A stretch of DNA of 55,177 nucleotides from a virus (Duplodnaviria > Heunggongvirae > Uroviricota > Caudoviricetes). The notes beneath the pieces were generated by a model. The model was given only the letters and a program-made list of their open reading frames with translations, made no database searches and was not told the origin of the DNA. Of the stretch, positions 15,782-37,491 are shown piece by piece (positions within the stretch are counted from its first letter, which is position 1; each line of letters opens with the position of its first letter). The position numbers were made by a program, and so were the translations under genes. The DNA is taken from the IMG/VR virus record IMGVR_UViG_2541047719_000008; one strand, 5' to 3'.

Positions 15782-16809
<1,028 letters not shown>

Positions 16810-19416: not shown

Positions 19417-19607
19417 TTTTTGAGGGGGTGGTTGTTGTTTAATTGTTTGGTATATCTAATTGATAAGTAAGGTGAAAATAAAATAAATACAACAACCTTA
19501 CGATGTGCTTTGATGTCATTAATGTGAAAAAATTAAATGATATCAAATGGTTTTGTAAAAACACATGGTTGTTGTATCGCTTTTTATCGATGACTTATGG
19601 AGAGGAG

Positions 19608-22014: not shown

Positions 22015-22204
22015 ACTGCAGGCGCTGCGTCAGGCGCGCCTTGATTTATTAACCGGTAAACGGGTGGTGTCTGTCCAGAAAGATGGTCGCAGAATTGAAT
22101 ATACGGCGGCTTCTCTGGATGAGCTTAACCGGGCTATCAATGATGCGGAGTCGGTACTGGGGACAACCCGACGTCGCCGTCGTCCGCTGGGAGTGAGGTT
22201 ATGA
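21998..22204 (+). CDS. W: Head-tail joining protein W
   Basis: 68 aa with LLTGKRVVSVQKDGRRIEYTAASL, matching lambda gpW. Confidence 0.8.
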   Translation: MVTVAELQALRQARLDLLTGKRVVSVQKDGRRIEYTAASLDELNRAINDAESVLGTTRRRRRPLGVRL

Positions 22205-23793: not shown

Positions 23794-25288
23794 TCTTTCA
23801 CACATTATTGCCGCAGCATTCAATGAACCGCTGCTTCTGGAGCCCGCCTATGCGCGGGTTTTCTTTTGCGCGCTCGGGCGCGAGATGGGGGCAGCAAGTC
23901 TTTCGGTACCACAACAACAGGTACAGCTTGATGCTCCCGGAATGCTGGCTGAAACGGACGAGTATATGGCCGGAGGTAAACGACCGGCCCGTGTTTACCG
24001 GGTGGTGAACGGTATTGCTGTACTGCCGGTGACCGGCACGCTGGTGCACCGGCTGGGTGGTATGCGGCCATTTTCCGGAATGACAGGCTATGACGGCATT
24101 GTCGCCTGTCTTCAGCAGGCAATGGCGGATAGCCAGGTGCGGGGCGTACTGCTGGACATTGACAGTCCGGGCGGGCAGGCCGCCGGCGCGTTTGACTGCG
24201 CTGACATGATTTACCGCCTCCGTCAGCAGAAGCCGGTCTGGGCACTGTGCAATGACACGGCCTGTTCTGCAGCCATGCTGCTGGCGTCGGCCTGCTCCCG
24301 ACGGCTGGTTACCCAGACATCCCGTATCGGCTCCATTGGCGTGATGATGAGCCATGTCAGCTATGCCGGTCATCTGGCGCAGGCCGGTGTGGATATCACG
24401 CTGATTTACTCAGGTGCGCACAAGGTGGATGGCAATCAGTTTGAAGCGTTGCCGGCAGAGGTTCGCCAGGACATGCAGCAGCGGATTGATGCGGCGCGCC
24501 GGATGTTTGCCGAAAAAGTGGCGATGTATACCGGTCTGTCTGTTGATGCCGTCACGGGAACAGAGGCTGCCGTTTTTGAAGGTCAGTCCGGCATTGAGGC
24601 CGGGCTGGCGGATGAATTAATCAATGCGTCGGATGCCATCAGTGTGATGGCCACGGCGCTGAACAGTAATGTCAGAGGAGGCACTATGCCGCAATTAACT
24701 GCAACGGAAGCCGCCGCGCAGGAGAACCAGCGAGTGATGGGGATCCTGACATGCCAGGAAGCGAAAGGACGTGAACAGCTTGCCACGATGCTGGCAGGAC
24801 AACAGGGCATGAGCGTTGAACAGGCCCGGGCGATTCTGGCCGCGGCGGCACCGCAGCAGCCGGTGGCATCCACGCAGAGTGAAGCCGATCGCATTATGGC
24901 GTGTGAAGAAGCGAACGGTCGTGAACAACTGGCGGCAACGCTGGCGGCGATGCCGGAGATGACGGTGGAAAAAGCCCGCCCGATCCTGGCTGCTTCACCG
25001 CAGGCGGATGCCGGACCATCACTCCGTGATCAGATCATGGCACTGGATGAGGCAAAAGGGGCTGAGGCGCAGGCTGAACAGCTGGCTGCCTGCCCGGGAA
25101 TGACAGTGGAGAGCGCCCGGGCTGTGCTGGCTGCGGGATCAGGTAAGGCAGAACCGGTCTCTGCATCCACAACCGCCATGTTTGAACATTTCATGGCGAA
25201 CCATTCACCGGCAGCGGTACAGGGTGGCGTGCCACAGACGTCAGCAGACGGTGATGCGGACGTGAAAATGCTCATGGCCATGCCATGA
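23783..25288 (+). CDS. C: Capsid assembly protease C with in-frame Nu3-like scaffold region
   Basis: S49/ClpP-like N-terminal domain; C-terminal part contains three tandem ~45-aa repeats, as expected for the nested scaffold. Confidence 0.85.
   Translation: MRRNLSHIIAAAFNEPLLLEPAYARVFFCALGREMGAASLSVPQQQVQLDAPGMLAETDEYMAGGKRPARVYRVVNGIAVLPVTGTLVHRLGGMRPFSGMTGYDGIVACLQQAMADSQVRGVLLDIDSPGGQAAGAFDCADMIYRLRQQKPVWALCNDTACSAAMLLASACSRRLVTQTSRIGSIGVMMSHVSYAGHLAQAGVDITLIYSGAHKVDGNQFEALPAEVRQDMQQRIDAARRMFAEKVAMYTGLSVDAVTGTEAAVFEGQSGIEAGLADELINASDAISVMATALNSNVRGGTMPQLTATEAAAQENQRVMGILTCQEAKGREQLATMLAGQQGMSVEQARAILAAAAPQQPVASTQSEADRIMACEEANGREQLAATLAAMPEMTVEKARPILAASPQADAGPSLRDQIMALDEAKGAEAQAEQLAACPGMTVESARAVLAAGSGKAEPVSASTTAMFEHFMANHSPAAVQGGVPQTSADGDADVKMLMAMP
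24720..25140. repeat. Three tandem in-frame ~135-bp repeats within C/Nu3
   Basis: Protein repeats CQEAKGREQLATMLAGQQGMSVEQARAILAAAAPQ / CEEANGREQLAATLAAMPEMTVEKARPILAASPQ / LDEAKGAEAQAEQLAACPGMTVESARAVLAAG. Confidence 0.5.
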
Positions 25289-25324
25289 AGTCAGTGCTGA
25301 CCATCAATAGGAGGTTTTTACAAT

Positions 25325-25672
25325 ATGGTGACGAAAACCATCACTGAACAGCGTGCGGAAGTACGTATTTTTGCCGGTAATGATCCGGCTCATACCGCCA
25401 CAGGCAGCAGCGGGATTTCCTCGCCAACACCGGCACTGACGCCCCTGATGCTGGATGAAGCCACCGGGAAACTGGTGGTCTGGGACGGACAGAAAGCCGG
25501 TAGTGCGGTTGGCATACTGGTACTGCCGCTTGAAGGTACAGAGACGGCGCTGACGTATTACAAGTCGGGAACCTTTGCGACGGAGGCAATCCACTGGCCT
25601 GAAAGTGTGGATGAACACAAAAAGGCCAACGCCTTTGCCGGCAGTGCCCTGAGTCACGCGGCGCTGCCGTAA
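25325..25672 (+). CDS. D: Head decoration protein D
   Basis: 115 aa with DPAHTAT ... TPLMLD ... VVWDG ... YKSGTF ... HWPESV, matching lambda gpD. Confidence 0.85.
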   Translation: MVTKTITEQRAEVRIFAGNDPAHTATGSSGISSPTPALTPLMLDEATGKLVVWDGQKAGSAVGILVLPLEGTETALTYYKSGTFATEAIHWPESVDEHKKANAFAGSALSHAALP

Positions 25673-25729
25673 CACGTTATCAGGCCACCGCGGTGGCCTG
25701 ACTGATTTCTGAATGAAAGGAACTGATTT

Positions 25730-25975
25730 ATGGGATTGTTTACGACCCGCCAGTTACTCGGTTATACCGAACAAAAAGTTAAATTTCGTGCGCTGTTTCT
25801 GGAGCTGTTTTTCCGCCGTACGGTGAATTTCCATACCGAAGAGGTGATGCTGGACAAAATTACCGGAAAAACGCCGGTGGCGGCCTATGTCTCCCCGGTT
25901 GTTGAAGGAAAAGTGCTGCGTCATCGTGGTGGTGAAACCCGCGTGTTGCGTCCGGGCTACGTCAAGCCGAAGCAC
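25730..25975 (+). pseudogene. E: Major capsid protein E, N-terminal fragment (interrupted by the inserted element)
   Basis: First ~82 codons match lambda gpE up to RPGYVKPKH, then the frame runs into unrelated sequence and stops at 26005. Confidence 0.85.
25965..25975. other. Left junction core repeat (attL-like) AGCCGAAGCAC
   Basis: 11-bp sequence at the point where E homology ends; an imperfect copy AGCCGAAACAC lies where E homology resumes (36698-36708). Confidence 0.55.
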
Positions 25976-26137
25976 TTAGCATGGCTTTCTGAGGCTTTCG
26001 TGTAGTTGCTGGTTTTTACACTTAATCTTTTGATAATAAAGAGTAAGTTTATCTGGCGCTTTCACTGGATTTTCCTCGTTATCTGTGTGTTGCAATCATC
26101 TCTGTATTGCAGCTTGTATTGCTTTTTGGGGCTAAAA

Positions 26138-27373
26138 ATGGCTGGCGAGAACAAACTGAGCGACAAAGCACTTAAAGGATATCTGGGGAAACCTAGAGAA
26201 AAGCAGATCACCATTGCTGATGGAAAGGGGCTTTCTATTCGTGTGAGTACCAAGGGGGCTGTGAGCTTTGTTTTCTTCTACAGGTTAGCAGGTGGCCGGG
26301 CTGCTCCGGTCTGGCTAACGTTGGGTAAATATCCTGATATGTCACTCAAACAGGCAAGGGAAAAGCGCGACGAGTGCCGTGGTTGGTTGGCTGACAAACG
26401 TGATCCGCGTATTCAGATTAAGATTCAGGCTGAAGAACGCTTAAAGCCGGTCACAGTGGAGGATGCACTAAATTACTGGTATGAAAATTACTGTAAGGTG
26501 CGTCGTAAAACTCATGCTGTAACGCTTGGCAGATTTCGAAAGCATATCTTTCCCTATATCGGTCATTTGCCCGTAAATGACACTCACCTATATGAATGGC
26601 TGGACTGTTTTGACCGAATTAAACGTAATGCACCAGTTATGGCGGCGTATGTTTTTTCTGACACTAAATTAGCTCTTCGTTTTTGTCGGGTACGCCAGTA
26701 CGCGACGTGTGATGCTTTAAAGGATTTGCGCATGAGTGATGTGGGGCAGATTGCAGGTAAGCGGGATCGGGTTCTGGATGAAGCCGAACTGGGCCAGCTC
26801 TGGAAGGCAATTTTTGTCGAGCCTGATTTAAAACTAATGTCTGAATACACGCGAAAAATGTTTGTGCTTTGTACAGTATTTGGATGTCGAATGAGTGAAG
26901 CCCGATTATCAGAATGGAGCGAATGGGATCTAGAAAGTTGGGTTTGGACTGTACCGAAAGATCACTCAAAAACTGGTGTTGAAATTGTCAGGCCAGTACC
27001 TGAAATTCTACGGCAGTGGGTAACGGATGTTCACGAAGAGACAAAACATACTGGTTATGTGCTGGGAAGTCTGCGAATTAGAGAAAGCGTAAGCAAGATT
27101 GGGGGGAAAATCGGTAAACGTTTGGGCCATGAAAAACAATGGTCACTACACGACCTTAGAAGAACGCTATCTACTCATCTAAGTGATCTCGGTGTTGAAT
27201 TTTATGTAGTAGAACAACTGTTAGGCCATGCGCTACCTGGCGTGGCAGGTGTTTACAACCGGAGTAAGTTTATGGCTAAAAAACTGGATGCTCTGGAACT
27301 CTGGACTACATATCTCAATAGCATCGCAGCTGCTGATTCAAAAGTGACAATCCTCAAACAAAAGGCTGGTTAG
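26138..27373 (+). CDS. int: Tyrosine integrase, P4-type
   Basis: N-terminal LSDKALKGYLGKP...GKGLSIRVS (P4-integrase N-domain) and C-terminal catalytic HDLRRT ... GH...Y motifs; start taken at MAGENK rather than the upstream ORF start at 26006. Confidence 0.85.
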   Translation: MAGENKLSDKALKGYLGKPREKQITIADGKGLSIRVSTKGAVSFVFFYRLAGGRAAPVWLTLGKYPDMSLKQAREKRDECRGWLADKRDPRIQIKIQAEERLKPVTVEDALNYWYENYCKVRRKTHAVTLGRFRKHIFPYIGHLPVNDTHLYEWLDCFDRIKRNAPVMAAYVFSDTKLALRFCRVRQYATCDALKDLRMSDVGQIAGKRDRVLDEAELGQLWKAIFVEPDLKLMSEYTRKMFVLCTVFGCRMSEARLSEWSEWDLESWVWTVPKDHSKTGVEIVRPVPEILRQWVTDVHEETKHTGYVLGSLRIRESVSKIGGKIGKRLGHEKQWSLHDLRRTLSTHLSDLGVEFYVVEQLLGHALPGVAGVYNRSKFMAKKLDALELWTTYLNSIAAADSKVTILKQKAG

Positions 27374-27374
27374 C

Positions 27375-27596
27375 ATGAAAAAAATGGCAATTGTTGATAA
27401 AAAGGGGCTGGAGTACATTCCTAACATTGACCGAATGATCCGTGAGAAAGAATGTCGGGAGCTAACCACTCTTGCGAACAGCACACGCTGGAAGCTTGAA
27501 AAGGAGGGGAAATTCCCCAAGCGAATCAAAATCGGATCTACGGCGGTGGCTTATAGACTCTCTGAGATTCAAGCTTGGATAAGAGGTGAATGGTAA
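27375..27596 (+). CDS. alpA: AlpA-family transcriptional regulator/excisionase
   Basis: 73 aa; REKECRELTTLANSTRWKLEKEGKFPKRIKIG...AYRLSEIQAWI matches the AlpA pattern; directly follows int. Confidence 0.75.
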   Translation: MKKMAIVDKKGLEYIPNIDRMIREKECRELTTLANSTRWKLEKEGKFPKRIKIGSTAVAYRLSEIQAWIRGEW

Positions 27597-27622
27597 GTTA
27601 GGGAGGTATTCCTCCCTATATC

Positions 27623-28306
27623 TTACAGGAAATTTTTTAAATCAGGGTTTTTTCCAAATGCGCTCTTATAATATACTGTTGCAATCTCGTTAAAAATAGT
27701 TTTTATATCATCGGTAACCACTATTGTTGCTACGCGCAAATCTTTTTGATATTCATTTAAATCTGGAGGGGTATAGTCCAATAGCGTTGATTTATCCAAG
27801 ATTAAATGTTCTAACATGGCATAGCGCTCAATCAATGTTTTATAAAAATGATATTGATTTTCACTGTTAGCATGTGCACAGTTTATTGCAAGTAAATACG
27901 TTATTTCATTATCTAGATGTGCACGGACAAGGCTTGTATAGGTTTTTTTACGATCTAGATCAAAGGGATGGTATCCAGCATTTTCATCAATGAACTTCAA
28001 TAGATGATATAATATTCTGAAGTAGCTTCCAAAAACAGCATCATGATTGTGCATCAGTGTATTAGTGTCTTTTAAAGAAACCAATCCATTCATCATTTTA
28101 TTAATTAACTCTGAGTAATTTGATTTTTTTCTAAGATCATTTAGAGCATTGTTATGTTGAGATAACATGAGAGAAAATGTTGATTCAAAAGATGATTGCT
28201 TTTTAGCAATTAATGCAACTAACACTGCTGTGCAAGTCCCGAGTGCCACGAAGAAATTTATAATGTTTGATGCAGTGAATACAGCATCGTCAGGAGTTGG
28301 AGTCAT
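27623..28306 (-). CDS. AT-rich cargo gene: hypothetical membrane-anchored protein, candidate abortive-infection/defence factor
   Basis: 227 aa on the opposite strand to int-alpA; one N-terminal hydrophobic helix; markedly AT-rich compared with its neighbours; no confident family assignment. Confidence 0.5.
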   Translation of the reverse strand: MTPTPDDAVFTASNIINFFVALGTCTAVLVALIAKKQSSFESTFSLMLSQHNNALNDLRKKSNYSELINKMMNGLVSLKDTNTLMHNHDAVFGSYFRILYHLLKFIDENAGYHPFDLDRKKTYTSLVRAHLDNEITYLLAINCAHANSENQYHFYKTLIERYAMLEHLILDKSTLLDYTPPDLNEYQKDLRVATIVVTDDIKTIFNEIATVYYKSAFGKNPDLKNFL

Positions 28307-28338
28307 TTGAATATCCTATTCAATAAAAATTAAAAAAA

Positions 28339-28533
28339 TTAGCCTTTAGGTTCTATACCTTTACGGCGAAGCTCAGCACGAACTAATTCTTTAATCCAAT
28401 TGGCCAAGCTCATTCCTTCCTGAGCTGCTGATTCAGCCATCTGTTCTTTGAGTTCAGGATTGATTCGGATCTGAAACGCAGGGGCTTTGCCGGCTCCTTT
28501 TGGCTGCTTATCTCTTTGAATTGTAGTTGACAT
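28339..28533 (-). CDS. Ribbon-helix-helix (CopG/Arc-type) DNA-binding protein
   Basis: 64 aa; APAFQIRINPELKEQMAESAAQEGMSLANWIKELVRAEL is a classic RHH beta-strand plus two helices. Confidence 0.65.
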   Translation of the reverse strand: MSTTIQRDKQPKGAGKAPAFQIRINPELKEQMAESAAQEGMSLANWIKELVRAELRRKGIEPKG

Positions 28534-28578
28534 GTGTGTACCTATTGCTTAGCATCAGTGTTGAATAGGTACACACAT
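28532..28578. promoter_or_regulatory. Perfect 15-bp inverted repeat (candidate operator) at the RHH gene start
   Basis: ATGTGTGTACCTATT ... 17 bp ... AATAGGTACACACAT, overlapping the RHH start codon, in the divergent intergenic region. Confidence 0.5.
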
Positions 28579-28669
28579 TAACATGATGTTATACCTATAA
28601 ACAACGCCCTAGGGTGCTCGCAACACACCTAGGGCGTCTAACCACAAACCGTTAACTGGAGTAACGACT

Positions 28670-29035
28670 ATGGCTGGAACACAGCATACCCAAACTCACC
28701 CTAAATTTATATACATCTTTCTGGCGCTACATCGCGATCGCATAGCAGATGGAGCAACTACGGTACATGTAGCCGCTGACACGCTGGTTGATGCGCGCAA
28801 GATGGTTAAGGAGATGGGCTATACTGCGGCTTTCTGGAAAGGGCGGGAAGAAAACACGCTGTTTATTCAGAAATGTGAAAACAATTTCATCTGGCGTTTT
28901 ATCGCCCTGAGTACGGCACAACCGCGCGTGATTACCATCGAGGCCACCAGCGAACAGGAAGCCCGCCAGCAATCCCCAACTGGCTGCGTGATGATATTCG
29001 CCGCCCGTATTCGTCAGGAGGTGTGCCATGAATGA
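28670..29035 (+). CDS. Hypothetical protein (first gene of the rightward operon of the element)
   Basis: 121-aa ORF; no motif recognised; true start may be internal. Confidence 0.4.
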   Translation: MAGTQHTQTHPKFIYIFLALHRDRIADGATTVHVAADTLVDARKMVKEMGYTAAFWKGREENTLFIQKCENNFIWRFIALSTAQPRVITIEATSEQEARQQSPTGCVMIFAARIRQEVCHE

Positions 29036-29252
29036 TCTTTATTTTAAAGTGCTGACACATGCTGAAAACGCGCTCGTTTGTGGCAAAAATATGCGAGAAA
29101 TCTTATCAACCTGGCTTGATGGGACAACAAATGCGGAACACGATGAACGGGATGCTAATTTAGCTGGAGCGTTAATTACGTTACTTGATCCTGTCATCAA
29201 AGAGCTGGATGAAGCTATAAAAATACACGACCAGAGCTATACCGGAGAATAA
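29028..29252 (+). CDS. Hypothetical protein
   Basis: 74-aa ORF overlapping the upstream stop. Confidence 0.4.
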   Translation: MNDLYFKVLTHAENALVCGKNMREILSTWLDGTTNAEHDERDANLAGALITLLDPVIKELDEAIKIHDQSYTGE

Positions 29253-29255
29253 AAA

Positions 29256-29543
29256 ATGAAAAATAAATTTTCTGGCTTTATTGCCAGCGGTCAAACTCAT
29301 TCAAAAATCAGCCTTGGGGATATTTTCAAAGATAGCTATGGCTATCGGGTAAAGATTATTTCGGTTGATGATCGTCGTGTCTCTTATTTGCGTGATGGTT
29401 ATGATTTTGAATGTGTTATGCCGCGTCAGCAGTTCGAAAGAGATTTCATTCTGGTAAAAAATTGCAAGACAGATAATCAGAGGCGTGCCGCAGGCTATAT
29501 CCGTAAAATTCGGGCAATGTTAGTTGCCGGAGGTAACAAATGA
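29256..29543 (+). CDS. Hypothetical protein
   Basis: 95-aa ORF immediately preceding and overlapping the primase start. Confidence 0.4.
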   Translation: MKNKFSGFIASGQTHSKISLGDIFKDSYGYRVKIISVDDRRVSYLRDGYDFECVMPRQQFERDFILVKNCKTDNQRRAAGYIRKIRAMLVAGGNK

Positions 29544-31360
29544 AACGTGCTCCGAACTTAAAATACCAACCGCGCGACAAAATGACGGAAGTCATCATTT
29601 TTGCTGGCAGTGATGCCTGGAGCCATGCAAAAGAATGGAATGAATGGGCAGGTAAGCATATTGCAGCAGATGATACACCACCAGTCATTCTGGGTACGGA
29701 ACAACTGGAAAACCTGGATGATATGCAAATTATCGATGAAGGCCGTCATTATGTGCGTGTTTATCGTGCCGGAAAGATTGCAGAGAAAAGTCTGACGAAG
29801 GTTGCGACATTACTTGCTATTGCAGGCGTAAAGGAAGCACGTTGTTACCGTAGCTTTGTTGATCGAGAGCCTGAAGACTGGACTCCGCGCCTTGTCGGCC
29901 TAAAAGCTGAAGCGGAGCATGGGGAAAGTCTGGTGATTGAACTGCCAGTGAAGAAGGCAGAGCGCAAAAATGACGAGCGTGCTTCATCTTTGGCGTTGAA
30001 TCAGATGGGGGCCAGCCAGCGCGGTGAAGTTCTCCTTGCACATTACGGCGGCGAACTGGCAATCAATGCCGACTCTGACACCGTTCATCATTACAACGGC
30101 GTTGTATGGGAGCCGGTTCAGGATAAAGAGTTACAGCGTGCTATGGCGCAGATTTTCATTGATGCGGAGATCAGCTATTCGCAGAACGCCATTAAATCGG
30201 CGGTAGATACCATGAAGTTAAGTTTGCCTGTAATGGGGAATACAGCCCGTAACCTGATTGGATTCAGTAACGGGGTATTTGATACCAGAACTGGTAATTT
30301 TCGGGAGCATAACAAAAACGACTGGTTGTTAATTGCCAGTGAATTACCTTTCAGCCCACCAGCAGAGGGGGAAACGCTGGCAACACATGCGCCGAATTTC
30401 TGGAAGTGGTTGCGCCGTTCGGTGGCTGAGAATGACCGCAAGGCAGATCGCGTACTGGCGGCATTATTCATGGTGCTGGCGAACCGGTACGACTGGCAGT
30501 TATTCATTGAGGTAACAGGGCCGGGGGGAAGTGGTAAAAGTGTGATGGCGGAGATTTGCACCATGCTGGCGGGTAAGGCGAATACAGTATCAGCAAGCAT
30601 GAAGGCGCTGGAAGATGCAAGGGAACGTGCGTTAGTGGTTGGCTTTTCGCTGATTATCATGCCGGATATGACCCGCTACGCTGGTGATGGGGCAGGGATT
30701 AAGGCCATTACAGGCGGTGACAAGGTGGCAATTGACCCGAAACACAAAGCCCCCTATTCAACGCGTATTCCGGCAGTAGTGCTGGCGGTTAACAATAACG
30801 CCATGTCATTCAGTGACCGCAGCGGGGGGATCTCACGTCGTCGGGTGATATTCAATTTTTCGGAAGTTGTACCGGAGAACGAACGCGATTCGATGCTGGC
30901 GGAAAAAATAGAAGGTGAGCTGGCGGTAGTGATTCGCCATCTGCTTACACGGTTTGCTGATCAGGACGAAGCCAGACGCCTGTTATATGAGCAGCAGAAA
31001 TCTGAAGAAGCACTGGCGATAAAGCGAGAGGGGGATTCGCTGGTGGACTTCTGCGGCTATCTCATGGCATCGGTAATGTGTGATGGCCTGTTAGTGGGTA
31101 ATGCTGAAATTGTGCCATTCAGCCCACGCAGGTATCTCTATCATGCCTATCTGGCTTATATGAGGGCACATGGGTTTGGTAAACCTGTAACACTGACGCG
31201 CTTCGGTAAAGATATGCCGGGGGCAATGGCGGAATATGGCAGGGAGTATATGAAACGGAAAACGAAGCACGGTTTGCGTTCAAACGTGACACTGACGGAG
31301 GAATCAGAAGACTGGATGCCATCATGTGTATCGGTCACTAATGACGATAGCAAAAATTAA
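29540..31360 (+). CDS. Primase/helicase replication initiator (P4-alpha / PICI Pri-Rep type)
   Basis: 606 aa with Walker A GPGGSGKS in the C-terminal half (D5/P4-primase-type NTPase); followed directly by an iteron array. Confidence 0.8.
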   Translation: MKRAPNLKYQPRDKMTEVIIFAGSDAWSHAKEWNEWAGKHIAADDTPPVILGTEQLENLDDMQIIDEGRHYVRVYRAGKIAEKSLTKVATLLAIAGVKEARCYRSFVDREPEDWTPRLVGLKAEAEHGESLVIELPVKKAERKNDERASSLALNQMGASQRGEVLLAHYGGELAINADSDTVHHYNGVVWEPVQDKELQRAMAQIFIDAEISYSQNAIKSAVDTMKLSLPVMGNTARNLIGFSNGVFDTRTGNFREHNKNDWLLIASELPFSPPAEGETLATHAPNFWKWLRRSVAENDRKADRVLAALFMVLANRYDWQLFIEVTGPGGSGKSVMAEICTMLAGKANTVSASMKALEDARERALVVGFSLIIMPDMTRYAGDGAGIKAITGGDKVAIDPKHKAPYSTRIPAVVLAVNNNAMSFSDRSGGISRRRVIFNFSEVVPENERDSMLAEKIEGELAVVIRHLLTRFADQDEARRLLYEQQKSEEALAIKREGDSLVDFCGYLMASVMCDGLLVGNAEIVPFSPRRYLYHAYLAYMRAHGFGKPVTLTRFGKDMPGAMAEYGREYMKRKTKHGLRSNVTLTEESEDWMPSCVSVTNDDSKN

Positions 31361-31373
31361 ACTTATGGAATAA

Positions 31374-31596
31374 CTGTTCACCACTGTTCACCCTGTCATA
31401 AATATCTTTTATATCAGTATATTATAGGGTGAACAGTTATTTATGAACTGTTCACCAAACTATTCACTGTTCACCTTTTTGATTGTTTATTGAGCTTCAA
31501 GGGTGAACAGTGGTGAACAGTTGGTGAATAGTTTTTGTGAAACTGTTCACCCATTAACATTATGAATTAAAAGAGAAAATATCAAAAGGTGAACAG
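31374..31596. repeat. Iteron array, candidate replication origin of the element
   Basis: At least nine copies of the 9-mer CTGTTCACC/GGTGAACAG in both orientations (e.g. 31374, 31384, 31428, 31448, 31467, 31502, 31512, 31543, 31588) in AT-rich non-coding DNA. Confidence 0.7.
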
Positions 31597-31647
31597 GTGA
31601 AGGGTTAAAACGCAAAAATTTTAATTTACTGCTGTGAGATAAAGCCT

Positions 31648-31893
31648 ATGACAGCGAAGCACACAAAAAAATCACAATCGCACGCCCTTGATTTGACGGA
31701 ACACTGGTTAAGGGTGTCGATAAAAATCATCGACCGCAACGCCGGGGAAGGATACGCGAAAGCACATCCCGAACTGATTAGCGCATTCATGACAACGGCG
31801 GCTGCAAACTTTGCCACTCTGACCGAACGGGAGATTGCTGAAGCGGAGGAAGTGGCAACAATCAATATTAAGTCCGGAGAGCAGGCAGCATGA
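31648..31893 (+). CDS. Hypothetical protein
   Basis: 81-aa ORF between the origin and ssb. Confidence 0.4.
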   Translation: MTAKHTKKSQSHALDLTEHWLRVSIKIIDRNAGEGYAKAHPELISAFMTTAAANFATLTEREIAEAEEVATINIKSGEQAA

Positions 31894-32339
31894 CGGCGCA
31901 AATATCAGTTTACGGGCGGTTGGTGGACGACCCGCAGACAAAACAGACCAGCAAGGGCACCCCCATGACGCTGGCGCGTATGGCGGTATCACTGCCCTGC
32001 AGTCAGTCGGATGACGGTCAGGCGACGATGTGGTTATCTGTCCTGGCGTTTGGCAGACAAGCCGACGCGCTGGCAAAGCATCACAAAGGCGAACTCCTGA
32101 GCGTGGCGGGTAATATGCAGGTGAGCCAGTGGACTGGACAGAACGGTGAAACGCGGCAGGGCTGGCAGGTTATCGCAGACAGCGTAATCAGTGCGCGAAC
32201 GGTGCGACCGGGCGGCAAAAAAGGTCAACAGGGTCAGGCTACTGACGCACTGAACAGAGCAAAACAACAGGCAGATCAGCAAGGAAGCCATCCACCAGTG
32301 GGAGATAATGAACAATGGGGAGATGATATTCCGTTTTAA
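31890..32339 (+). CDS. ssb: Single-stranded DNA-binding protein
   Basis: OB-fold-like N-terminus, Gly/Gln-rich linker and the canonical acidic tip DDIPF at the C-terminus. Confidence 0.75.
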   Translation: MTAQISVYGRLVDDPQTKQTSKGTPMTLARMAVSLPCSQSDDGQATMWLSVLAFGRQADALAKHHKGELLSVAGNMQVSQWTGQNGETRQGWQVIADSVISARTVRPGGKKGQQGQATDALNRAKQQADQQGSHPPVGDNEQWGDDIPF

Positions 32340-32550
32340 ATATTGCCAATAAAAAAGGCCGGAAAAAAATAAATTTTCCGGCATGCTACATAAATCCCGA
32401 CCAAAGGGAGTGAAGATATTAACACTAATTATCCGCGCTGAAGTTGTTATCCCAAAACTTTATACAACATTGCACTCGGTTGCATGTATTCGCATGACAA
32501 ATATCGGTGATAGCATATATCCACAATTATTTTTAATGAATGCAAAGAGG

Positions 32551-33597
32551 ATGCGTATGGTTGATTTATATTCGCCTACCCAGCTTGTACAGGTGGTTAA
32601 TGCTGTAGATGTACAAAAACAACTAAATGCGTTGTTTACCAGTTTGTTTTTTACTCGCTCGGTAATGTTTGAATCGCGCGATATTATTCTTGATACAATC
32701 GACGATCCAAATATCCCAATTGCAGCGTTTTGTTCTCCTATGGTGGGTAGTAAAGTTTCACGTGACGAAGGGTACGAATCAAAAACAATTCGTCCAGGCT
32801 ATATGAAGCCGAAAAGCAGCATTGATCCAAATAAGTTAGCTGTGCGCCCTGTTGGTGTATCACCTGAGCAATACAATGCTTTTGGAGCGCGTAATATTAA
32901 AGTTAAACAGGCGATTGTAAATCAGGCTAAAGCTATTCGTGCACGTATTGAATGGCTTGCCGTTCAGGCAATCACAACGGGGAAAAATATCATTGAGGGC
33001 GATGGTATTGAACGTTATGAGCTGGACTGGAATATTAAACCACAAAATATCATCACTCAGTCTGGCGGTGCTGAGTGGTCAGGTAAGGATAAAGAAACTT
33101 TTGATCCAAATGATGATATTGAGAGCTACGCAGAATTTAGTGAGGGCGTCACTAATATTATCATTATGGGCGGTAATGTATGGAAGAAATACCGTTCATT
33201 CAGAGCGATAAAAGAGGCTCTGGATACCCGTCGTGGTTCTAATTCCGAACTGGAAACGGCCCTTAAAGACCTTGGTGATTCGGTGAGTTTTAAAGGGTAT
33301 ATGGGCGATGTTGCGATTGTTGTTTACAGCGGGCGTTATACCGACGAGGACGGAACAGAAAAACATTTCCTTGATCCTGATTTGATGGTGCTTGGCAATA
33401 CGGCTCTTCAGGGGATTGTCGCCTATGGCGGTATTCAGGATCCGGAGCTAATCCGAATGGGGCTGACTAAAGCCGAACTTGCACCGAAAAACTATATTGT
33501 GCCTGGTGATCCGGCTATTGAATATGTGCAGACACATTCAGCACCACAGCCAATACCGGCCCGCATCAATCGTTTTGTTACCGTTCGCATTGGCTAA
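32551..33597 (+). CDS. Major capsid protein, lambda E-like paralog encoded by the inserted element
   Basis: Full-length homology to the split prophage E gene (RPGYMKPKS vs RPGYVKPKH; LDTRRGSNSELETALKDLG; YSGRYTDEDG; GDPAIEY). Start at MRMVDLY with AAAGAGG RBS; the tool ORF starts at 32383. Confidence 0.8.
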   Translation: MRMVDLYSPTQLVQVVNAVDVQKQLNALFTSLFFTRSVMFESRDIILDTIDDPNIPIAAFCSPMVGSKVSRDEGYESKTIRPGYMKPKSSIDPNKLAVRPVGVSPEQYNAFGARNIKVKQAIVNQAKAIRARIEWLAVQAITTGKNIIEGDGIERYELDWNIKPQNIITQSGGAEWSGKDKETFDPNDDIESYAEFSEGVTNIIIMGGNVWKKYRSFRAIKEALDTRRGSNSELETALKDLGDSVSFKGYMGDVAIVVYSGRYTDEDGTEKHFLDPDLMVLGNTALQGIVAYGGIQDPELIRMGLTKAELAPKNYIVPGDPAIEYVQTHSAPQPIPARINRFVTVRIG

Positions 33598-33606
33598 GGG
33601 GGAGCA

Positions 33607-33948
33607 ATGGCTACTCATTACACTGAACTCATGGCTGGCACTGAAGCACTGGTGACTACGCTGGGGATATTTTCAGCTAATAAAGGGGTAATTCCTGCAT
33701 TTACGCCACTGATGCAGGAAGATGCAACAGGTGCACTGGTAGTATGGGATGGTTCGAGCGTAGGTAAAGCGGTTTATGTTTCCGCTGTACAAATCGACAC
33801 CGCGAAAAAAACACAGGCTCAGGTCTATAAGACAGGTGTCTTAAATGTTGATGCTCTGAACTGGCCTGAGTCTGTTAAAGAACTGTCAGTAAAGGTTGCA
33901 GCGTTTGTTGGCTCAGGTATTTCTGTTCAGCCGCTGGCTCGTGTGTAA
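33607..33948 (+). CDS. Head decoration protein, lambda D-like paralog encoded by the inserted element
   Basis: 113 aa sharing TPLM, VVWDG, YK(T/S)G, NWPESV and AF(V/A)GS blocks with the prophage D protein. Confidence 0.75.
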   Translation: MATHYTELMAGTEALVTTLGIFSANKGVIPAFTPLMQEDATGALVVWDGSSVGKAVYVSAVQIDTAKKTQAQVYKTGVLNVDALNWPESVKELSVKVAAFVGSGISVQPLARV

Positions 33949-33959
33949 AGGGGGATACA

Positions 33960-34343
33960 ATGCAGAATGATTACAATGACCTTAAGCCAATTGCCGAAAT
34001 GATGTACCCGAATCAAGCTGTAGAGGAATTAAAAGCTATCGCTGACAAAATGTGTTTAAGCGAGCGCCTTGTTGATATGAATCAGGTGATGGAAATTACA
34101 ACCCTGAGTCGTCGTACACTGCTAAACCTTGAGGCTAGTGGAGAGTTCCCGGAGCGTGTGCAGGTTACGGAAGGGCGTAAGGCCTGGTATTTAAGTGAAG
34201 TGATCGACTGGATAAATAATATTCCTCGCGCTTCTGAATATTGCCGCGTACCTGTCCCAAAAAAGCCAGATGCGGCGCTATGCCTCAAGATTGAGCGTGT
34301 ACGCCGCAATGCACGGGATGGTCGCTATAAGCTGATTGGTTGA
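33960..34343 (+). CDS. AlpA-like HTH DNA-binding protein
   Basis: MEITTLSRRTLLNLEASGEFPERVQVTEGRKAWYLSEVIDWI matches the AlpA-type HTH; precedes the element's cos site. Confidence 0.5.
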   Translation: MQNDYNDLKPIAEMMYPNQAVEELKAIADKMCLSERLVDMNQVMEITTLSRRTLLNLEASGEFPERVQVTEGRKAWYLSEVIDWINNIPRASEYCRVPVPKKPDAALCLKIERVRRNARDGRYKLIG

Positions 34344-34369
34344 TGAAATTAGGGCCTGCTCTGGCTGGC

Positions 34370-34434
34370 GGGTCCTTTCCGGCGATCTGACAGGCTACGG
34401 GGCGTCAGGCGCGCGGGTTTTCGCTATTTATGAG
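34370..34434. other. Second, element-borne cos site with variant cosN (GGGCGTCAGGCG)
   Basis: GGGTCCTTTCCGGCGATCTGACAGGCTACG + GGGCGTCAGGCG + CGCGGGTTTTCGCTATTTATGAG aligns to the prophage cos at 19350-19416, with five substitutions in the 12-nt cohesive-end segment. Confidence 0.7.
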
Positions 34435-34535
34435 CATTTTAAGGGGACTGGTGGTGGTTTTGTTGTTCGCTATATCTGTATGAATAATAAGAGAAAAATA
34501 CAATCAATACACCAACCTGAAACAGTAATTAAGTT

Positions 34536-35087
34536 GTGGTATCAATGAAATTACACCTGATGAACAAAAAAAACATGGCAAAAAGTTGCCGTGTAAGCGC
34601 CACTGCGTTCGATAAGTGGGGAGTGATTCCCGTCGAGCGTAAGGGCCGTGAGGCGTTCTATGATGTTGCCAGTGTAATAGATAATCGGGTTAACAATGCA
34701 ATCAGCCAGATTACAAACGAAACGGGCGATATTGATGACGATGAACTTTTACGCGTCAGGATCAGATTACTGACAGCACAGGCAGAGGCGCAGGAGCTTA
34801 AAAACGAGCGCGAACGCGGCGACGTTATTGATACAGAGTTTTGTATGTATGTTCTTTCCAAACTGGCGAGTCAGATTTCATCTATCATGGACAGCCTGCC
34901 GCTTACCATGCAAAGGCGCTTCCCACAGATGACTCCGGCTATGCTGGATGGACTTAAAAAGGAAGTGGCTAAAGCCTGTAATGCCAGTGCCGGCGTTGCT
35001 GACAACCTCCCACAGATACTGGCTGATTATCTGATGGAAAGTACAGGAAACGTACCGGATAAGTTGCAGCTGAATAAGGATAAGTAA
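34536..35087 (+). CDS. Terminase small subunit, Nu1-like paralog encoded by the inserted element
   Basis: SATAFDKWGVIPVERKGREAFYDV ... YVLSKLASQISSIMDSLPLTMQRRFPQMTP parallels the prophage Nu1 (SVQAFDKWGVPPVERRGREVFYDV ... ALSKLAMALSSTLDSIPLSMQRQFPDLTP). Confidence 0.8.
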   Translation: MVSMKLHLMNKKNMAKSCRVSATAFDKWGVIPVERKGREAFYDVASVIDNRVNNAISQITNETGDIDDDELLRVRIRLLTAQAEAQELKNERERGDVIDTEFCMYVLSKLASQISSIMDSLPLTMQRRFPQMTPAMLDGLKKEVAKACNASAGVADNLPQILADYLMESTGNVPDKLQLNKDK

Positions 35088-35098
35088 CGTAGTACGCT

Positions 35099-35374
35099 AT
35101 GACTGAATCCGAACTACTGAAAGTAATCTGCCATGCTGGTGGAGTCAGCCACCAGCATGACGAACAGGCCACGCAGCCGGGCAGTGTCACCGCTGAAAAT
35201 TACGCTCGTGTGGTTGCTGAGGTTATGTGGCGTGACGGTATAGAACTGAACGGACAGGATTGCTTAGTCATCCGCACCAAAGTGCTGGCTATACTGGCAG
35301 CTAGGCGGAGGCAGGGACAACGCCAGAACGTTGCATCGTACCAGTGGAAGAAGCCTGACAGACTGCGGCGATAA
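35099..35374 (+). CDS. Hypothetical protein
   Basis: 91-aa ORF after the Nu1-like gene; no motif recognised. Confidence 0.35.
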   Translation: MTESELLKVICHAGGVSHQHDEQATQPGSVTAENYARVVAEVMWRDGIELNGQDCLVIRTKVLAILAARRRQGQRQNVASYQWKKPDRLRR

Positions 35375-35776
35375 CTCTTTGATTTTCTCGACGGCCCCAA
35401 AATGGGCCTTACCATAGCCAGCTAATAAATGAGCAAGCCTCAAAAGTGAGGTTTGTGGCCGTTTGGCCTATTCATATGCTAACTCGTTGATATTCCTGAC
35501 GACGCAAATTTACGCCTTGTGGCTGGTAGTCGAATTGCAAATTTGCAACTCGACTATGAAACTACAGGTAGTTTGGGTAGTAAAAGCAACACACTGATTT
35601 TGGGGCTTCTTCGCGATACCTAATATTATGGTATCGGTGGAAGAGATATCGTTTCTCATAGGTTAGCACCGAGGGCGGAGTTCCGCCCTCATCGAAAAAT
35701 TGCTTACGAGTCGTCAAAATAAATTAATCGACTGAGTATAATGATTAACTAATTGCTCGTGTTACTTCATTATACG

Positions 35777-36538
35777 TTATTTCCCATCTTTAAGGTTTAA
35801 CCAAGTGTTAATTAAAAAAAGAGCCATTGAGCCTGATAAATTTACTGCAAGTTCGGCATGCCTTGGGGATGGCTTAATTGATGAGCTGTTCGTTCCATGT
35901 GCATCACCGAGTTTATTACGAAGAGTACCTAACCCATTTACAACTGCAGAACAACCGCCGAGAATTTGTTTGAAGATATTTTCAGTATGTTGGTCGGCAG
36001 ATAGGTTAAGTTCTTTTGAAAGAGTTTTATAAAGCTCTGACATTTCAATATTTTTATTATTATACTGAATGCCCATATCATCAAGAATGTGTTTGCAAAC
36101 TGTTTCAAGAAGTGTTCTTGCGGAGGTTATCGCACCATCCGGATCTGTATGGCGCCGTTCAAGTGCTTTTATCCAAACGGCGTGGACTCCATCCTCGTTA
36201 AACTTTCTTAATACATCAGATATGTCTTCATCCGCTGGAGCTTTATTTTTCCCTTCTAGATAGTCCAGCATCGGCTGAAATGCCTTATAAATCAAATCTC
36301 TCCGGGGGGCATACTTTTCAGTCTTTTTTATAAATCCCCAAAATTCTTTTAGTGAGCGATTAGTTCTCACAAACTCTGGTAATAGCTGATGTAAAGGAGG
36401 ATTTTGTAAGAAATATGTTCTTAGAAGCAAATAATCATTATTAGCTTCATCCTGGGCTCCTGTAGCTCTTGCAATTAGTATGTTTTGAAGCGCTACTGCG
36501 CGCTCTAGGTCATTTTGAAGGGTATCTATAATATTCAT
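35777..36538 (-). CDS. AT-rich cargo gene: Abi_C-like (abortive infection C-terminal domain) protein
   Basis: 253 aa; C-terminal GTLRNKLGDAHG resembles the conserved R-N-x-x-G-x-A-H-G signature of Abi_C domains; opposite strand and AT-rich. Confidence 0.5.
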   Translation of the reverse strand: MNIIDTLQNDLERAVALQNILIARATGAQDEANNDYLLLRTYFLQNPPLHQLLPEFVRTNRSLKEFWGFIKKTEKYAPRRDLIYKAFQPMLDYLEGKNKAPADEDISDVLRKFNEDGVHAVWIKALERRHTDPDGAITSARTLLETVCKHILDDMGIQYNNKNIEMSELYKTLSKELNLSADQHTENIFKQILGGCSAVVNGLGTLRNKLGDAHGTNSSSIKPSPRHAELAVNLSGSMALFLINTWLNLKDGK

Positions 36539-36697
36539 AACAAATCTTTATTCACTTCATTTGTGGGTTGATAATTGAATGGTTTGTACATTGATTTCTG
36601 TGTATTGCAGTGTGTATTGCAACATAGCCATTCAGGTAGAGATTATGCTCTATTTTTCCTCTTATATCATTCACATACTTACACCATTGACTCATGT

Positions 36698-36708
36698 AGC
36701 CGAAACAC
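36698..36708. other. Right junction core repeat (attR-like) AGCCGAAACAC
   Basis: Imperfect copy of the left junction 11-mer, at the exact point where the E reading frame resumes. Confidence 0.55.
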
Positions 36709-37491
36709 GAATTTAATTACCAGCAGGCGGTTGAGCGCCTTCCTGGTGAAGATCCATCTCAACTGAACGATCCGGCTTACCGCCGTCTGCGTATCATTAC
36801 CGATAACCTCAAACAGGAAGAGCACGCGATTGTCCAGGTGGAAGAAATGCAGGCGGTAAATGCTGTGTTGTATGGCAAATACACCATGGAAGGAGACCAG
36901 TTCGAGAAAATTGAGGTCGATTTTGGCAGGTCGACGAAGAATAACATCACACAGGGTAGCGGTAAGGAATGGTCAAAACAGGATCGTGACACGTTCGATC
37001 CTACACATGATATTGACCTTTACTGCGACCAGGCCAGCGGTCTTGTGAATATTGCCATCATGGACGGTACCGTCTGGCGTCTGCTGAATGGTTTTAAGCT
37101 GTTTCGCGAAAAACTGGATACCCGTCGCGGTTCAAATTCACAACTCGAAACGGCAGTGAAAGATCTGGGCGCAGTGGTGTCCTTCAAGGGGTATTACGGC
37201 GATCTGGCTATTGTTGTGGCGAAAACGTCTTATATAGCAGAAGACGGTATCGAAAAACGTTATCTTCCAGATGGCATGCTGGTCCTGGGGAATACTGCTG
37301 CAGATGGGATCCGTTGTTACGGAGCCATTCAGGATGCGCAGGCGTTTTCCGAAGGTGTGGTGGCTTCTTCCCGTTATCCGAAACACTGGCTGACGGTGGG
37401 GGATCCTGCCCGTGAATTTACCATGACGCAGTCCGCACCGCTGATGGTGTTGCCGGACCCGGATGAGTTTGTGGTGGTACAGGTGAAATAA
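36700..37491 (+). pseudogene. E: Major capsid protein E, C-terminal fragment
   Basis: Frame opens after a TAG at 36697-36699 and reads PKHEFNYQQAVERLPGEDP ... DPAREFTMTQSAPLMVLPDPDEFVVVQVK, matching lambda gpE from about residue 80 to the end. Confidence 0.85.

What the first reader, a model, noticed from the sequence alone, without database searches (positions are those of the whole stretch)
25730..37491. Satellite-like element integrated inside the helper prophage major capsid gene E, with a restorable reading frame
The E gene reads as lambda gpE up to ...RPGYVKPKH (ending at 25975), then diverges and stops. Homology to gpE resumes in frame at 36700 (PKHEFNYQQAVERLPGEDP...) and continues to the normal C-terminus. 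The ~10.7 kb in between starts with a P4-type integrase and AlpA and is flanked by the 11-bp imperfect direct repeat AGCCGAAGCAC (25965-25975) / AGCCGAAACAC (36698-36708). Precise excision across the repeat would recreate an intact E. This looks like a reversible insertion, comparable to the skin element in sigK or phi10403S in comK, but here the interrupted gene is the capsid gene of the phage the element presumably exploits. I do not recognise this configuration as a described satellite integration target.
Basis: partly seen in the sequence, partly recalled or inferred. Interest (0 to 1): 0.92.

Follow-up and report, generated by a model that had tools for sequence, protein, structure and literature searches.

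The report
Known satellite embedded in prophage capsid gene
A 10.7 kb phage satellite really does sit inside the major capsid gene of a lambda-like E. coli prophage and could restore the gene by excising, but this arrangement, a "helper-embedded PICI", was published in 2023 and this very composite is in that paper's catalogue.

Summary
Lambda-type capsid gene E is split at 25975/36700. Removing the 10,733-bp unit gives an intact 342-aa E that is 99.9% identical to an uninterrupted E in a near-isogenic prophage of strain 2013C-4282.

The insert is a Gram-negative PICI-type satellite. It carries int, alpA, primase with an iteron ori, SSB, its own gpE and gpD homologues, a cos site, a Nu1-type TerS and Abi-like defence cargo.

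The novelty claim is not. [quoted passage not shown] They showed precise excision of the model element 11capE after mitomycin C.

- The window's integrase is 99.5% identical to that of 11capE.
- The family's doubled TGTATTGC motifs lie where the paper places them.
- attL, attR, the 7-bp core AGCCGAA and the 10,733-bp length match the catalogued Eco7031.11.E_Phage_cap_E_80 in helper Eco7031.58.prfC.
- Of 5,426 complete E. coli genomes, 175 carry this int; 174 hold an E-int junction.

Verdict: real, well read, already known.

The parts
25730..25975 (+). 5' fragment of helper major capsid gene E (82 codons). It then reads 10 element-derived codons to a stop at 26003-26005.
   Evidence: Pfam Phage_cap_E profile positions 1-78, E=5e-14. 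PGAP annotates a partial 'major capsid protein' pseudogene in the near-identical K56-43-un record.
25965..25971 (+). attL core AGCCGAA. The extended imperfect repeat runs to 25975; G at 25972 comes from the attP side.
   Evidence: Sequence. The paper's identity block for this genotype is 'agccgaa'.
26101..26123 (+). P' arm doubled motif (TGTATTGC at 26103-26110 and 26115-26122), about 133-135 bp downstream of the core centre.
   Evidence: The paper reports a doubled motif 132 +/- 2 bp downstream of the attP centre, unique to HE-PICIs.
26138..27373 (+). Satellite tyrosine integrase of the HE-PICI capE clade.
   Evidence: Pfam Arm-DNA-bind_3, Phage_int_SAM_3, Phage_integrase. 99.5% aa identity to the Int of the experimentally excising 11capE.
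27375..27596 (+). AlpA (excisionase / transcriptional activator).
   Evidence: Pfam Phage_AlpA, E=1e-15.
27623..28306 (-). Variable cargo: putative abortive-infection protein (putAbiC; weak AbiC/AbiP hits).
   Evidence: Pfam putAbiC, E=3e-16. PADLOC AbiC/AbiP, E about 3e-4. A different gene occupies this slot in relatives, for example a TIR protein in L002.
28339..28533 (-). Ribbon-helix-helix / YlcI-YnfO-family small regulator.
   Evidence: Pfam HicB/RHH_1. PHROG Arc-like repressor.
28670..29543 (+). Icd-like protein, a hypothetical protein and a DUF4222 protein (start of the rightward operon).
   Evidence: PGAP names. Pfam DUF4222. PHROG repressor-like families.
29540..31360 (+). Primase/helicase (D5_N, DUF5906, Pox_D5).
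31369..31606 (.). Putative ori: about 12 copies of the iteron GGTGAACAG/CTGTTCACC in both orientations, AT-rich, just downstream of pri.
   Evidence: The position matches the PICI ori described in PMC10111431.
31890..32339 (+). Single-strand DNA-binding protein.
   Evidence: Pfam SSB.
32557..33597 (+). Satellite's own gpE-family major capsid homologue, 42% identical to the restored helper E.
   Evidence: Pfam Phage_cap_E, E=1e-40. BLASTP 42%. Best PDB match 3bqw, 'putative capsid protein of prophage', E=1e-120; lambda gpE 7vi9, E=3e-76.
33607..33948 (+). Satellite's gpD-family head-decoration homologue, 45% identical to the helper D.
   Evidence: Pfam HDPD. BLASTP.
33960..34343 (+). Second AlpA-family HTH protein.
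   Evidence: Pfam Phage_AlpA. PDB 8c3t AlpA, E=2e-9.
34369..34518 (+). Satellite cos region. Its cosN-like 12-mer GGGCGTCAGGCG lies at 34400-34411; the helper's canonical GGGCGGCGACCT lies at 19380-19391.
   Evidence: 78% identity to helper 19349-19498. Alignments. Coordinates.
34545..35087 (+). Full-length Nu1-type small terminase, 48% identical to the helper Nu1.
   Evidence: Pfam Phage_Nu1, E=1e-24. PHROG terminase small subunit. BLASTP.
35777..36538 (-). Variable cargo: AbiJ-like / Abi_C abortive-infection protein.
   Evidence: Pfam Abi_C, E=1e-23. PADLOC AbiJ, E=2e-21. HEPN plus DUF262 genes occupy this slot in 11capE.
36599..36621 (+). P arm doubled motif (TGTATTGC at 36601-36608 and 36613-36620). 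It ends 81 bp upstream of the core centre at 36701.
   Evidence: The paper reports 81 +/- 2 bp.
36698..36704 (+). attR core AGCCGAA. A at 36705 matches the empty-site allele.
36700..37491 (+). 3' fragment of helper major capsid gene E (263 codons plus stop).
   Evidence: Pfam Phage_cap_E profile positions 77-329, E=7e-44.
19380..25672 (+). Helper head module upstream of E: cosN, Nu1, A, W, portal B, protease C and D. It is co-oriented with the satellite.
   Evidence: ORFs. PGAP annotation of the 99.96%-identical K56-43-un locus.

Best explanation
The 10,733-bp unit is a helper-embedded phage-inducible chromosomal island (HE-PICI) of the E:Phage_cap_E:80 group. It lies in the major capsid gene of a roughly 47-kb lambdoid prophage inserted at prfC.

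Its P4/PICI-clade tyrosine integrase recombined the attP core AGCCGAA with the same 7 bp inside codons 79-81 of E (VKPKH). The attP carries no replacement 3' end, so E is truncated while the satellite is resident.

Proposed cycle:
1. SOS induction derepresses the helper.
2. The whole composite excises from prfC and replicates, carrying the satellite passively.
3. Q-antiterminated late transcription through Nu1-A-W-B-C-D-E' reads into the co-oriented int-alpA.
4. Int plus AlpA excise the satellite precisely. This recreates an intact E (attB GTCAAGCCGAAACACGAATTT) and a circular satellite.
5. The satellite replicates from its own pri/iteron ori and is packaged through its own cos by helper TerL together with its own Nu1-type TerS.
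6. It uses helper portal, protease and tails, and possibly its own gpE and gpD homologues.

The helper's capsid production is therefore delayed and made dependent on satellite excision.

Shown here: the anatomy, the att sites, restorability of the frame, the empty site, recurrence, recent mobility between helpers, and family membership. Shown in the literature for the 99.5%-identical integrase of 11capE: precise, late excision after mitomycin C. Inferred: late read-through as the trigger, the packaging route and the role of the capsid homologues.
For: - Split E and restorable frame.
- Near-isogenic empty site: restored E is 99.9% identical to an intact E. The alignment with that prophage breaks exactly at the core, with 99.9% identity over 3.9 kb upstream and 97.6% over 8.6 kb downstream.
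- Satellite gene set, ori and cos.
- Integrase 99.5% aa identical to 11capE Int, and 99.4% nt identity over 5.6 kb of the replication and late zones.
- Doubled TGTATTGC motifs at -81 and about +133, as the family definition states.
- Recurrence: 175 of 5,426 complete E. coli genomes carry this int plus P' arm. Of these, 172 hold the junction with the 50icd-type E allele and 2 the junction with the window's lambda-type allele.
- Recent mobility: a 100%-identical element sits in a different helper at a different locus with a divergent E allele.
- No intrinsic terminator is predicted between E' and int, and every long satellite gene except the cargo is co-oriented with the late operon.
- Published experiments and catalogue: PMC10111431. 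Its supplement lists Eco7031.11.E_Phage_cap_E_80, 10,733 bp, core 'agccgaa', helper Eco7031.58.prfC, with attL and attR sequences that match the window on inspection.
Against: - No induction or excision data exist for this strain or this E allele.
- Tommasini et al. could not recover virions of 11capE or its helper, so helper-dependent transfer of any HE-PICI is still unproven.
- The window's E allele is rarely occupied, in 2 genomes against about 1,598 with an intact copy, so it may be a secondary, less efficient target.
- attL and attR differ at one base next to the core (G at 25972, A at 36705). This is compatible with site-specific recombination but shows that the last donor's attP was not identical to this attB.
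- The terminator and promoter scans are consensus matches only.
Confidence: 0.9

Rival explanations
1. Dead insertion. The element once integrated site-specifically but is now a fixed remnant that permanently inactivates a decaying prophage, kept for its Abi-type defence cargo.
For: Tommasini et al. note that many HE-PICI helpers look truncated, and they recovered no virions. The element carries two abortive-infection-like genes. Most of the 40 genomes holding at least 80% of the element are near-identical hits of one variant, which could reflect clonal inheritance.
Against: - All satellite ORFs are intact.
- Int is 99.5% identical to one shown to excise.
- Both arm motifs and the core are intact.
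- A 100%-identical copy lies in a different helper with a different E allele, which requires recent excision and reintegration.
- The helper's late genes from Nu1 to the tail fibres are open in the window.
Confidence: 0.07
2. Assembly chimera, or homologous recombination between the helper E and the satellite's own gpE-like gene, rather than integrase-mediated insertion.
For: The element carries a gpE homologue that retains the AGCCGAA heptamer at 32807-32813. Only 7-11 bp of repeat flank the insert.
Against: The junctions are not in the satellite's capsid gene, which lies 6.6 kb inside the element. The same junction is found in 174 independently finished genomes. The two capsid genes share only 42% aa identity and about 75% nt identity over a 104-bp patch. 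The integrase lies next to attL with arm-type motifs at fixed distances.
Confidence: 0.01
3. The interruption mainly benefits the host cell. It would be a domesticated switch that keeps the prophage from making capsids, a form of anti-prophage control, rather than a satellite strategy.
For: It works like the skin/sigK and phi10403S/comK type of regulated gene integrity. The defence cargo is carried at two variable slots.
Against: The element has a full satellite tool-kit (ori, primase, cos, TerS, capsid and decoration homologues) and moves between helpers. Only about 3% of genomes carry it, which does not fit a fixed host function. [quoted passage not shown]
Confidence: 0.02

Closest known systems
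HE-PICI Eco567.11capE in prophage 50icd of E. coli NRG857c (Tommasini, Mageeney and Williams 2023, PMC10111431)
   Same: - Same target codon in E (E:Phage_cap_E:80).
- Int 99.5% aa identical.
- Same P and P' arms and doubled motifs.
- 99.4% nt identity from the Icd-like gene to the second alpA.
- Same variant cosN.
- Same co-orientation with the late operon.
   Different: - The helper is at prfC, not icd.
- The E allele is lambda-type (HEFNYQQ, about 65% nt identity to the 50icd allele in the 3' part).
- The core is AGCCGAA rather than AACCCAAGCA.
- The window's element has a full Nu1-type terS and its own cosB-like region, where 11capE has lambda-like cosB and a truncated Nu1.
- The cargo is AbiC/AbiP-like and AbiJ-like, instead of a hypothetical protein and HEPN plus DUF262.
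Eco7031.11.E_Phage_cap_E_80 in Eco7031.58.prfC (supplement of PMC10111431; NOFA01000004.1/290018-279286)
   Same: The attL and attR sequences match the window on inspection, the core is 'agccgaa', the length is 10,733 bp, and the helper integration site is prfC.
   Different: I could compare only the att flanks printed in the supplement, not the whole element. Among complete genomes, K56-43-un is 99.96% identical to the window over 40.6 kb.
EcCICFT073 and other Gram-negative PICIs (Fillol-Salom et al. 2018; 2019, PMC6739421)
   Same: Same int-alpA ... pri-ori ... capsid homologue ... cos layout and about 10 kb size, with lambdoid cos helpers. The satellite MCP's best solved relative is PDB 3bqw, deposited as 'putative capsid protein of prophage'.
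   Different: Classical PICIs sit in chromosomal genes and interact with helpers only in trans. EcCICFT073 lacks terS and uses the short Rpp protein to retarget helper TerS. This element has a full-length TerS with no detectable match to the solved Rpp structures.
Regulated-gene-integrity elements: skin in sigK, phi10403S in comK
   Same: A site-specific element interrupts a gene without supplying a replacement end, and timed excision restores it.
   Different: Here the interrupted gene belongs to another mobile element, the helper phage, and the switch presumably serves the satellite. There is no sequence relationship. This comparison rests on established knowledge and on the paper's own discussion.

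Membership tests
HE-PICI, site group E:Phage_cap_E:80 (PMC10111431) | [quoted passage not shown] | tested here: met
   E is split at 25975/36700. int, alpA and pri are on the + strand like Nu1-A-W-B-C-D-E and the tail genes.
HE-PICI, site group E:Phage_cap_E:80 (PMC10111431) | Insertion at about codon 80 of the Pfam Phage_cap_E profile. | tested here: met
   The N fragment ends at profile position 78 and the C fragment resumes at 77. The overlap is the core.
HE-PICI, site group E:Phage_cap_E:80 (PMC10111431) | Primary integrase belongs to the 11capE subclade. | tested here: met
   99.5% aa identity over 411 residues to the NRG857c 11capE Int. No tree was built, and none is needed at this identity.
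HE-PICI, site group E:Phage_cap_E:80 (PMC10111431) | Doubled motif tgTGTATTGCantgTGTATTGCa 81 +/- 2 bp upstream and 132 +/- 2 bp downstream of the attP centre. | tested here: met
   Cores at 36601-36620, ending 81 bp before the core centre 36701, and at 26103-26122, with the motif starting about 133 bp after centre 25968. Seven occurrences in the window against 2.3 expected; four of them are these two pairs.
HE-PICI, site group E:Phage_cap_E:80 (PMC10111431) | attP carries no replacement for the target gene, so the late gene is disrupted until excision. | tested here: met
   E' reads 10 unrelated codons and stops at 26005. PGAP calls both halves pseudogenes.
HE-PICI, site group E:Phage_cap_E:80 (PMC10111431) | Precise excision after induction, giving attP and a restored attB. 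| not testable with these tools
   Shown by qPCR and read counts for 11capE. Here the support is comparative only: an empty-site allele at 99.9% identity and an identical element in a second helper.
Gram-negative PICI (Fillol-Salom 2018) | 10-20 kb island with int, alpA, pri and a downstream ori, mostly unidirectional, with a cos site and often a capsid homologue. | tested here: met
   The unit is 10,733 bp.
Gram-negative PICI (Fillol-Salom 2018) | Induction, packaging and high-frequency transfer by a helper phage. | not testable with these tools
   Needs lysate and transduction experiments. Not achieved even for 11capE.
Capsid-forming PICI (cf-PICI) | Encodes a complete head module (MCP, portal, protease, connectors, TerS and TerL) and takes only tails from the helper. 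| tested here: not met
   Only a gpE homologue, a gpD homologue and TerS are present. No ORF of the insert matches portal, protease or TerL in Pfam.
P4-like satellite | psu, delta, sid and epsilon genes with an alpha primase and a P4 integrase; CI/seqA immunity RNA. | tested here: not met
   The Pfam scans of the 18 long ORFs of the insert returned no Psu, Sid or Delta family. No C4 or isrK Rfam hit at E<=0.1. Only the integrase and D5-type primase resemble P4.

The most novel reading that the evidence does not exclude
This terS-positive genotype may go beyond the published model. It combines a variant cosN (5 of 12 bases changed), its own full-length Nu1-type TerS, and its own gpE and gpD homologues, while it silences the helper's E. 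The first procapsids after induction could therefore be built from satellite capsid protein on helper portal and protease, and filled only with satellite DNA. That would make it an intermediate between classical PICIs and capsid-forming PICIs. Excision would then hand E back to the helper only after the satellite has had a head start.
Probability: 0.1. Interest if true: 0.55.

Novelty: already known. Interest (0 to 1): 0.2.

Why it matters
The biology is striking. A parasite of a phage parks inside the phage's capsid gene, so the helper cannot build heads until the satellite leaves. The satellite is also replicated, and probably transcribed, in cis by its victim.

All of this was reported in 2022-2023, including this site, this integrase, the att motifs and this exact composite type. 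The window therefore adds no new kind of system. What it offers is a clean, fully assembled example of the rarer case, with a lambda-type E allele, a prfC helper and a terS-positive satellite.

Such an example could be useful for the questions the field still has open: whether HE-PICIs are actually packaged and transferred, and what the satellite's capsid, decoration and TerS copies do.

Tried and rejected
- Exact scan of GTDB species representatives for the P' arm (27 nt): 0 hits. The arm is strain-level sequence and the E. coli representative lacks it.
- Scan of the same collection for the doubled motif TGTATTGCANNNTGTATTGC: 120+ hits, almost all unrelated (Bacteroidota, Veillonella and others). 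Only 5 of the 120 loci had an adjacent integrase about 52% identical, and the two I inspected did not have an obvious phage late gene upstream. This was not specific enough to map the family.
- Rfam scan of 25000-38000 at E<=0.1: nothing. No P4-type CI/C4/isrK immunity RNA.
- PDB sequence search with the satellite TerS: no match, so I could not link it to lambda Nu1 or the Rpp structures.
- Phage-genome collection: no deposited phage genome carries the element. The only hit is a 78%-identical primase segment in a 16.5-kb induced element, vB_KppS-Ant.
- Accession search of the paper's supplement for K56-43-un, SCU-101 and C 237-04: absent. The match was found through the attR sequence instead.
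- Homologous recombination through the satellite's own capsid gene, and assembly chimera: rejected.

Full report
**Observation.**
- The ORF starting at 25730 matches Pfam Phage_cap_E profile positions 1-78. It keeps the gpE sequence to His-82, ending at 25975, then reads ten unrelated codons to a stop at 26005.
- From 36700 the frame PKHEFNYQQ... matches profile positions 77-329 and ends at 37491.
- The flanking repeat is AGCCGAAGCAC / AGCCGAAACAC, that is, a 7-bp identity block AGCCGAA, one mismatch, then CAC.
- Joining 25730-25975 to 36709-37491 gives an open 342-aa protein.

**What lies between.** The 10.7-kb insert (44.6% G+C against 49.9% for the rest of the window) encodes, mostly on the + strand:
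- a tyrosine integrase with an arm-binding domain, and AlpA;
- a leftward putAbiC-type gene and an RHH regulator;
- Icd-like and DUF4222 proteins;
- a D5-type primase/helicase, followed by about 12 GGTGAACAG/CTGTTCACC iterons (a likely ori);
- SSB;
- a gpE-family capsid homologue (42% identical to the restored E; best PDB match 3bqw, 'putative capsid protein of prophage');
- a gpD-family decoration homologue (45%);
- a second AlpA-family protein;
- a cos-like region 78% identical to the helper's cos, but with cosN GGGCGTCAGGCG instead of GGGCGGCGACCT;
- a full-length Nu1-type TerS (48% identical to the helper's);
- a leftward AbiJ-like gene.

This is the Gram-negative PICI layout, not a P4 or capsid-forming-PICI gene set.

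**Comparative evidence.**
- The restored E is 99.9% identical over its full length to an uninterrupted E in E. coli 2013C-4282, and 1,598 complete genomes hold an intact E of this type.
- That strain's prophage, also next to prfC, aligns with the window at 99.9% identity up to 25975 and resumes at 36698. The two segments overlap by exactly the 11 core bases of the empty site. Its attB reads GTCAAGCCGAAACACGAATTT.
- The listed E matches to an attL probe stop at base 25975.
- 175 of 5,426 complete E. coli genomes carry this integrase plus P' arm at 95% identity or more.
- Of these, 172 hold the junction with a 50icd-type E allele and 2 hold the window's lambda-type allele. Essentially every copy therefore sits at this point in an E gene.
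- Variants with different cargo (TIR protein, HEPN plus DUF262) occupy the same site.
- A 100%-identical copy lies in strain AST216 inside a different prophage. That prophage has DLP12-like neighbours and an E allele only about 65% identical in its 3' part. The element has therefore moved recently between helpers.
- The closest complete genome to the window is K56-43-un, at 99.96% over 40.6 kb.

- They describe 11capE, an 11-kb PICI in the E gene of prophage 50icd of E. coli NRG857c.
- They name the configuration HE-PICI and the site E:Phage_cap_E:80, and map 201 instances there and 290 at 13 other late-gene sites.
- By qPCR and read counting after mitomycin C, they show that the composite excises and replicates first, and that the satellite then excises precisely and restores E.
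- Their discussion already makes the 'regulated gene integrity' analogy, raises the packaging-size limit for the composite, and identifies the shared cos segment.

**Membership tests.**
- The window's Int is 99.5% identical in protein sequence to 11capE Int, and the two elements share 99.4% nt identity over 5.6 kb.
- The doubled TGTATTGC motif that the paper reports as unique to HE-PICIs, 81 +/- 2 bp upstream and 132 +/- 2 bp downstream of the attP centre, is present at 36601-36620 and 26103-26122.
- The supplement lists Eco7031.11.E_Phage_cap_E_80 (NOFA01000004.1/290018-279286, 10,733 bp, identity block 'agccgaa', helper Eco7031.58.prfC). Its printed attL and attR match the window on inspection, and its length equals the window's unit.
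- This composite type is therefore already catalogued.

**Mechanism.**
- Shown here: the anatomy, the att core and arms, the restorable frame, the empty site, recurrence and mobility.
- Shown in the literature for a 99.5%-identical integrase: precise, late excision.
- Inferred: Q-antiterminated late transcription reads from E' into int-alpA. No terminator is predicted between them, though this is a consensus scan only.
- Inferred: the excised circle replicates from its iteron ori and is packaged from its own cos using its TerS with helper TerL.
- Inferred: the satellite's capsid and decoration homologues modulate or substitute for helper head proteins.
- The composite is 58 kb by the catalogue name, so the helper alone is about 47 kb. 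The composite would exceed lambda's packaging tolerance, so helper packaging also depends on excision. This is an inference, and the paper raises the same point.

**Rivals.**
- A dead remnant is unlikely. The ORFs and arm motifs are intact, and an identical copy sits in a second helper.
- An assembly chimera, or recombination through the satellite's own capsid gene, is excluded by 174 independent finished genomes with the same junction and by the position of the junctions.
- A host-domesticated switch does not fit the complete satellite tool-kit or the 3% prevalence.

**Differences from the published model.** These are small but real.
- The window's E allele is the rarely occupied lambda type.
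- attL and attR differ at the base after the core (G/A), matching attP-side and attB-side origins.
- This genotype carries a full terS and its own cosB-like region, whereas 11capE has lambda-like cosB and a truncated Nu1.
- These points fall within the 'dynamic late zone' variation that the paper describes.

**Dead ends.**
- The GTDB arm scan found nothing.
- The motif scan was non-specific.
- Rfam gave no hit.
- The PDB search with TerS gave no match.
- No deposited phage genome carries the element.

**Verdict.** The novelty claim is refuted, because this is an already described HE-PICI at its most common site. Interest is low for discovery purposes. The remaining value is as a clean terS-positive example for the still-open questions of packaging and transfer.

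Noticed in passing
L003 (E. coli AST216, NZ_AP043625.1) 19255-31013, versus window 25730-37491: A 100%-identical copy of the 10.7-kb element sits in a different lambdoid prophage. That prophage has DLP12-like neighbours (emrE, ybcK, rusA, nohD), and its head genes and E allele do not align with the window's at megablast level. This implies recent transfer between helpers.
   Followed up: partly
window 25965-25975 / 36698-36708; L002 attL 3986-4000 and attR 15035-15044: Core heterologies. The window has G (attL) against A (attR) at the base after AGCCGAA. Strain WP8-S17 has AACCCAAGCA at attL but AGCCGAAGCA at attR. These look like footprints of integration into E alleles that differ from the previous helper's, and they could delimit the strand-exchange positions.
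   Followed up: partly
window E allele (25730-25975 + 36700-37491): There is a strong occupancy skew. The 50icd-type E allele carries the element in 172 complete genomes. The window's lambda-type allele carries it in only 2, although about 1,598 genomes hold an intact copy of that type.
   Followed up: partly
window 34400-34411 versus 19380-19391; L006 about 12090-12300: The satellite's cosN-like 12-mer differs from the helper's canonical lambda cosN at 5 of 12 positions, while the flanking cosQ-side and I1-like sequences are conserved. 11capE shares this variant cosN but is followed by lambda-like cosB and a truncated Nu1, whereas the window's element has its own cosB-like region and a full terS.
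   Followed up: partly
window 32807-32813: The satellite's own gpE homologue keeps the AGCCGAA heptamer at the position equivalent to the att core (RPGYMKPKS), but both flanking arms differ from attB.
   Followed up: no
window 27623-28306 (-) and 35777-36538 (-); L002 5664-6539; L006 12537-14253: Two leftward-transcribed cargo slots vary between otherwise near-identical elements: putAbiC/AbiP-like and AbiJ-like here, a TIR-domain protein in L002, and HEPN plus DUF262 in 11capE. They behave as defence-gene hotspots.
   Followed up: partly
L045 (Kluyvera ascorbata) 1-1460; L031 (Xenorhabdus bakwenae) 5940-7833; L080, L101, L117: The doubled TGTATTGC motif also lies next to integrases about 52% identical in other Enterobacterales. 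In the two loci inspected, the upstream flank looks chromosomal (by eye a DinB-like ORF and a membrane-transporter-like ORF; neither was tested), not an obvious phage late gene. The motif may therefore not be strictly confined to helper-embedded elements.
   Followed up: partly
L004 (E. coli 2013C-4282) 15008-16475: The near-isogenic empty-site prophage has an IS3-family insertion splitting gpW, so that satellite-free prophage is itself probably defective.
   Followed up: no
window 26006-27373 and 32383-33597, and 34336-34548: The mechanical ORF starts at TTG 26006 (int) and ATG 32383 (capsid homologue) are upstream over-extensions. PGAP-consistent starts are 26138 and 32557. The 70-aa ORF at 34336-34548 overlaps the cos site and is probably not a gene.
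   Followed up: yes
window 5500-46135 versus L005 (K56-43-un): The window is 99.96% identical to K56-43-un, not 100% (about 15 differences in 40.6 kb). Its source may therefore be another strain of the same composite type, for example the catalogued Eco7031.
   Followed up: no
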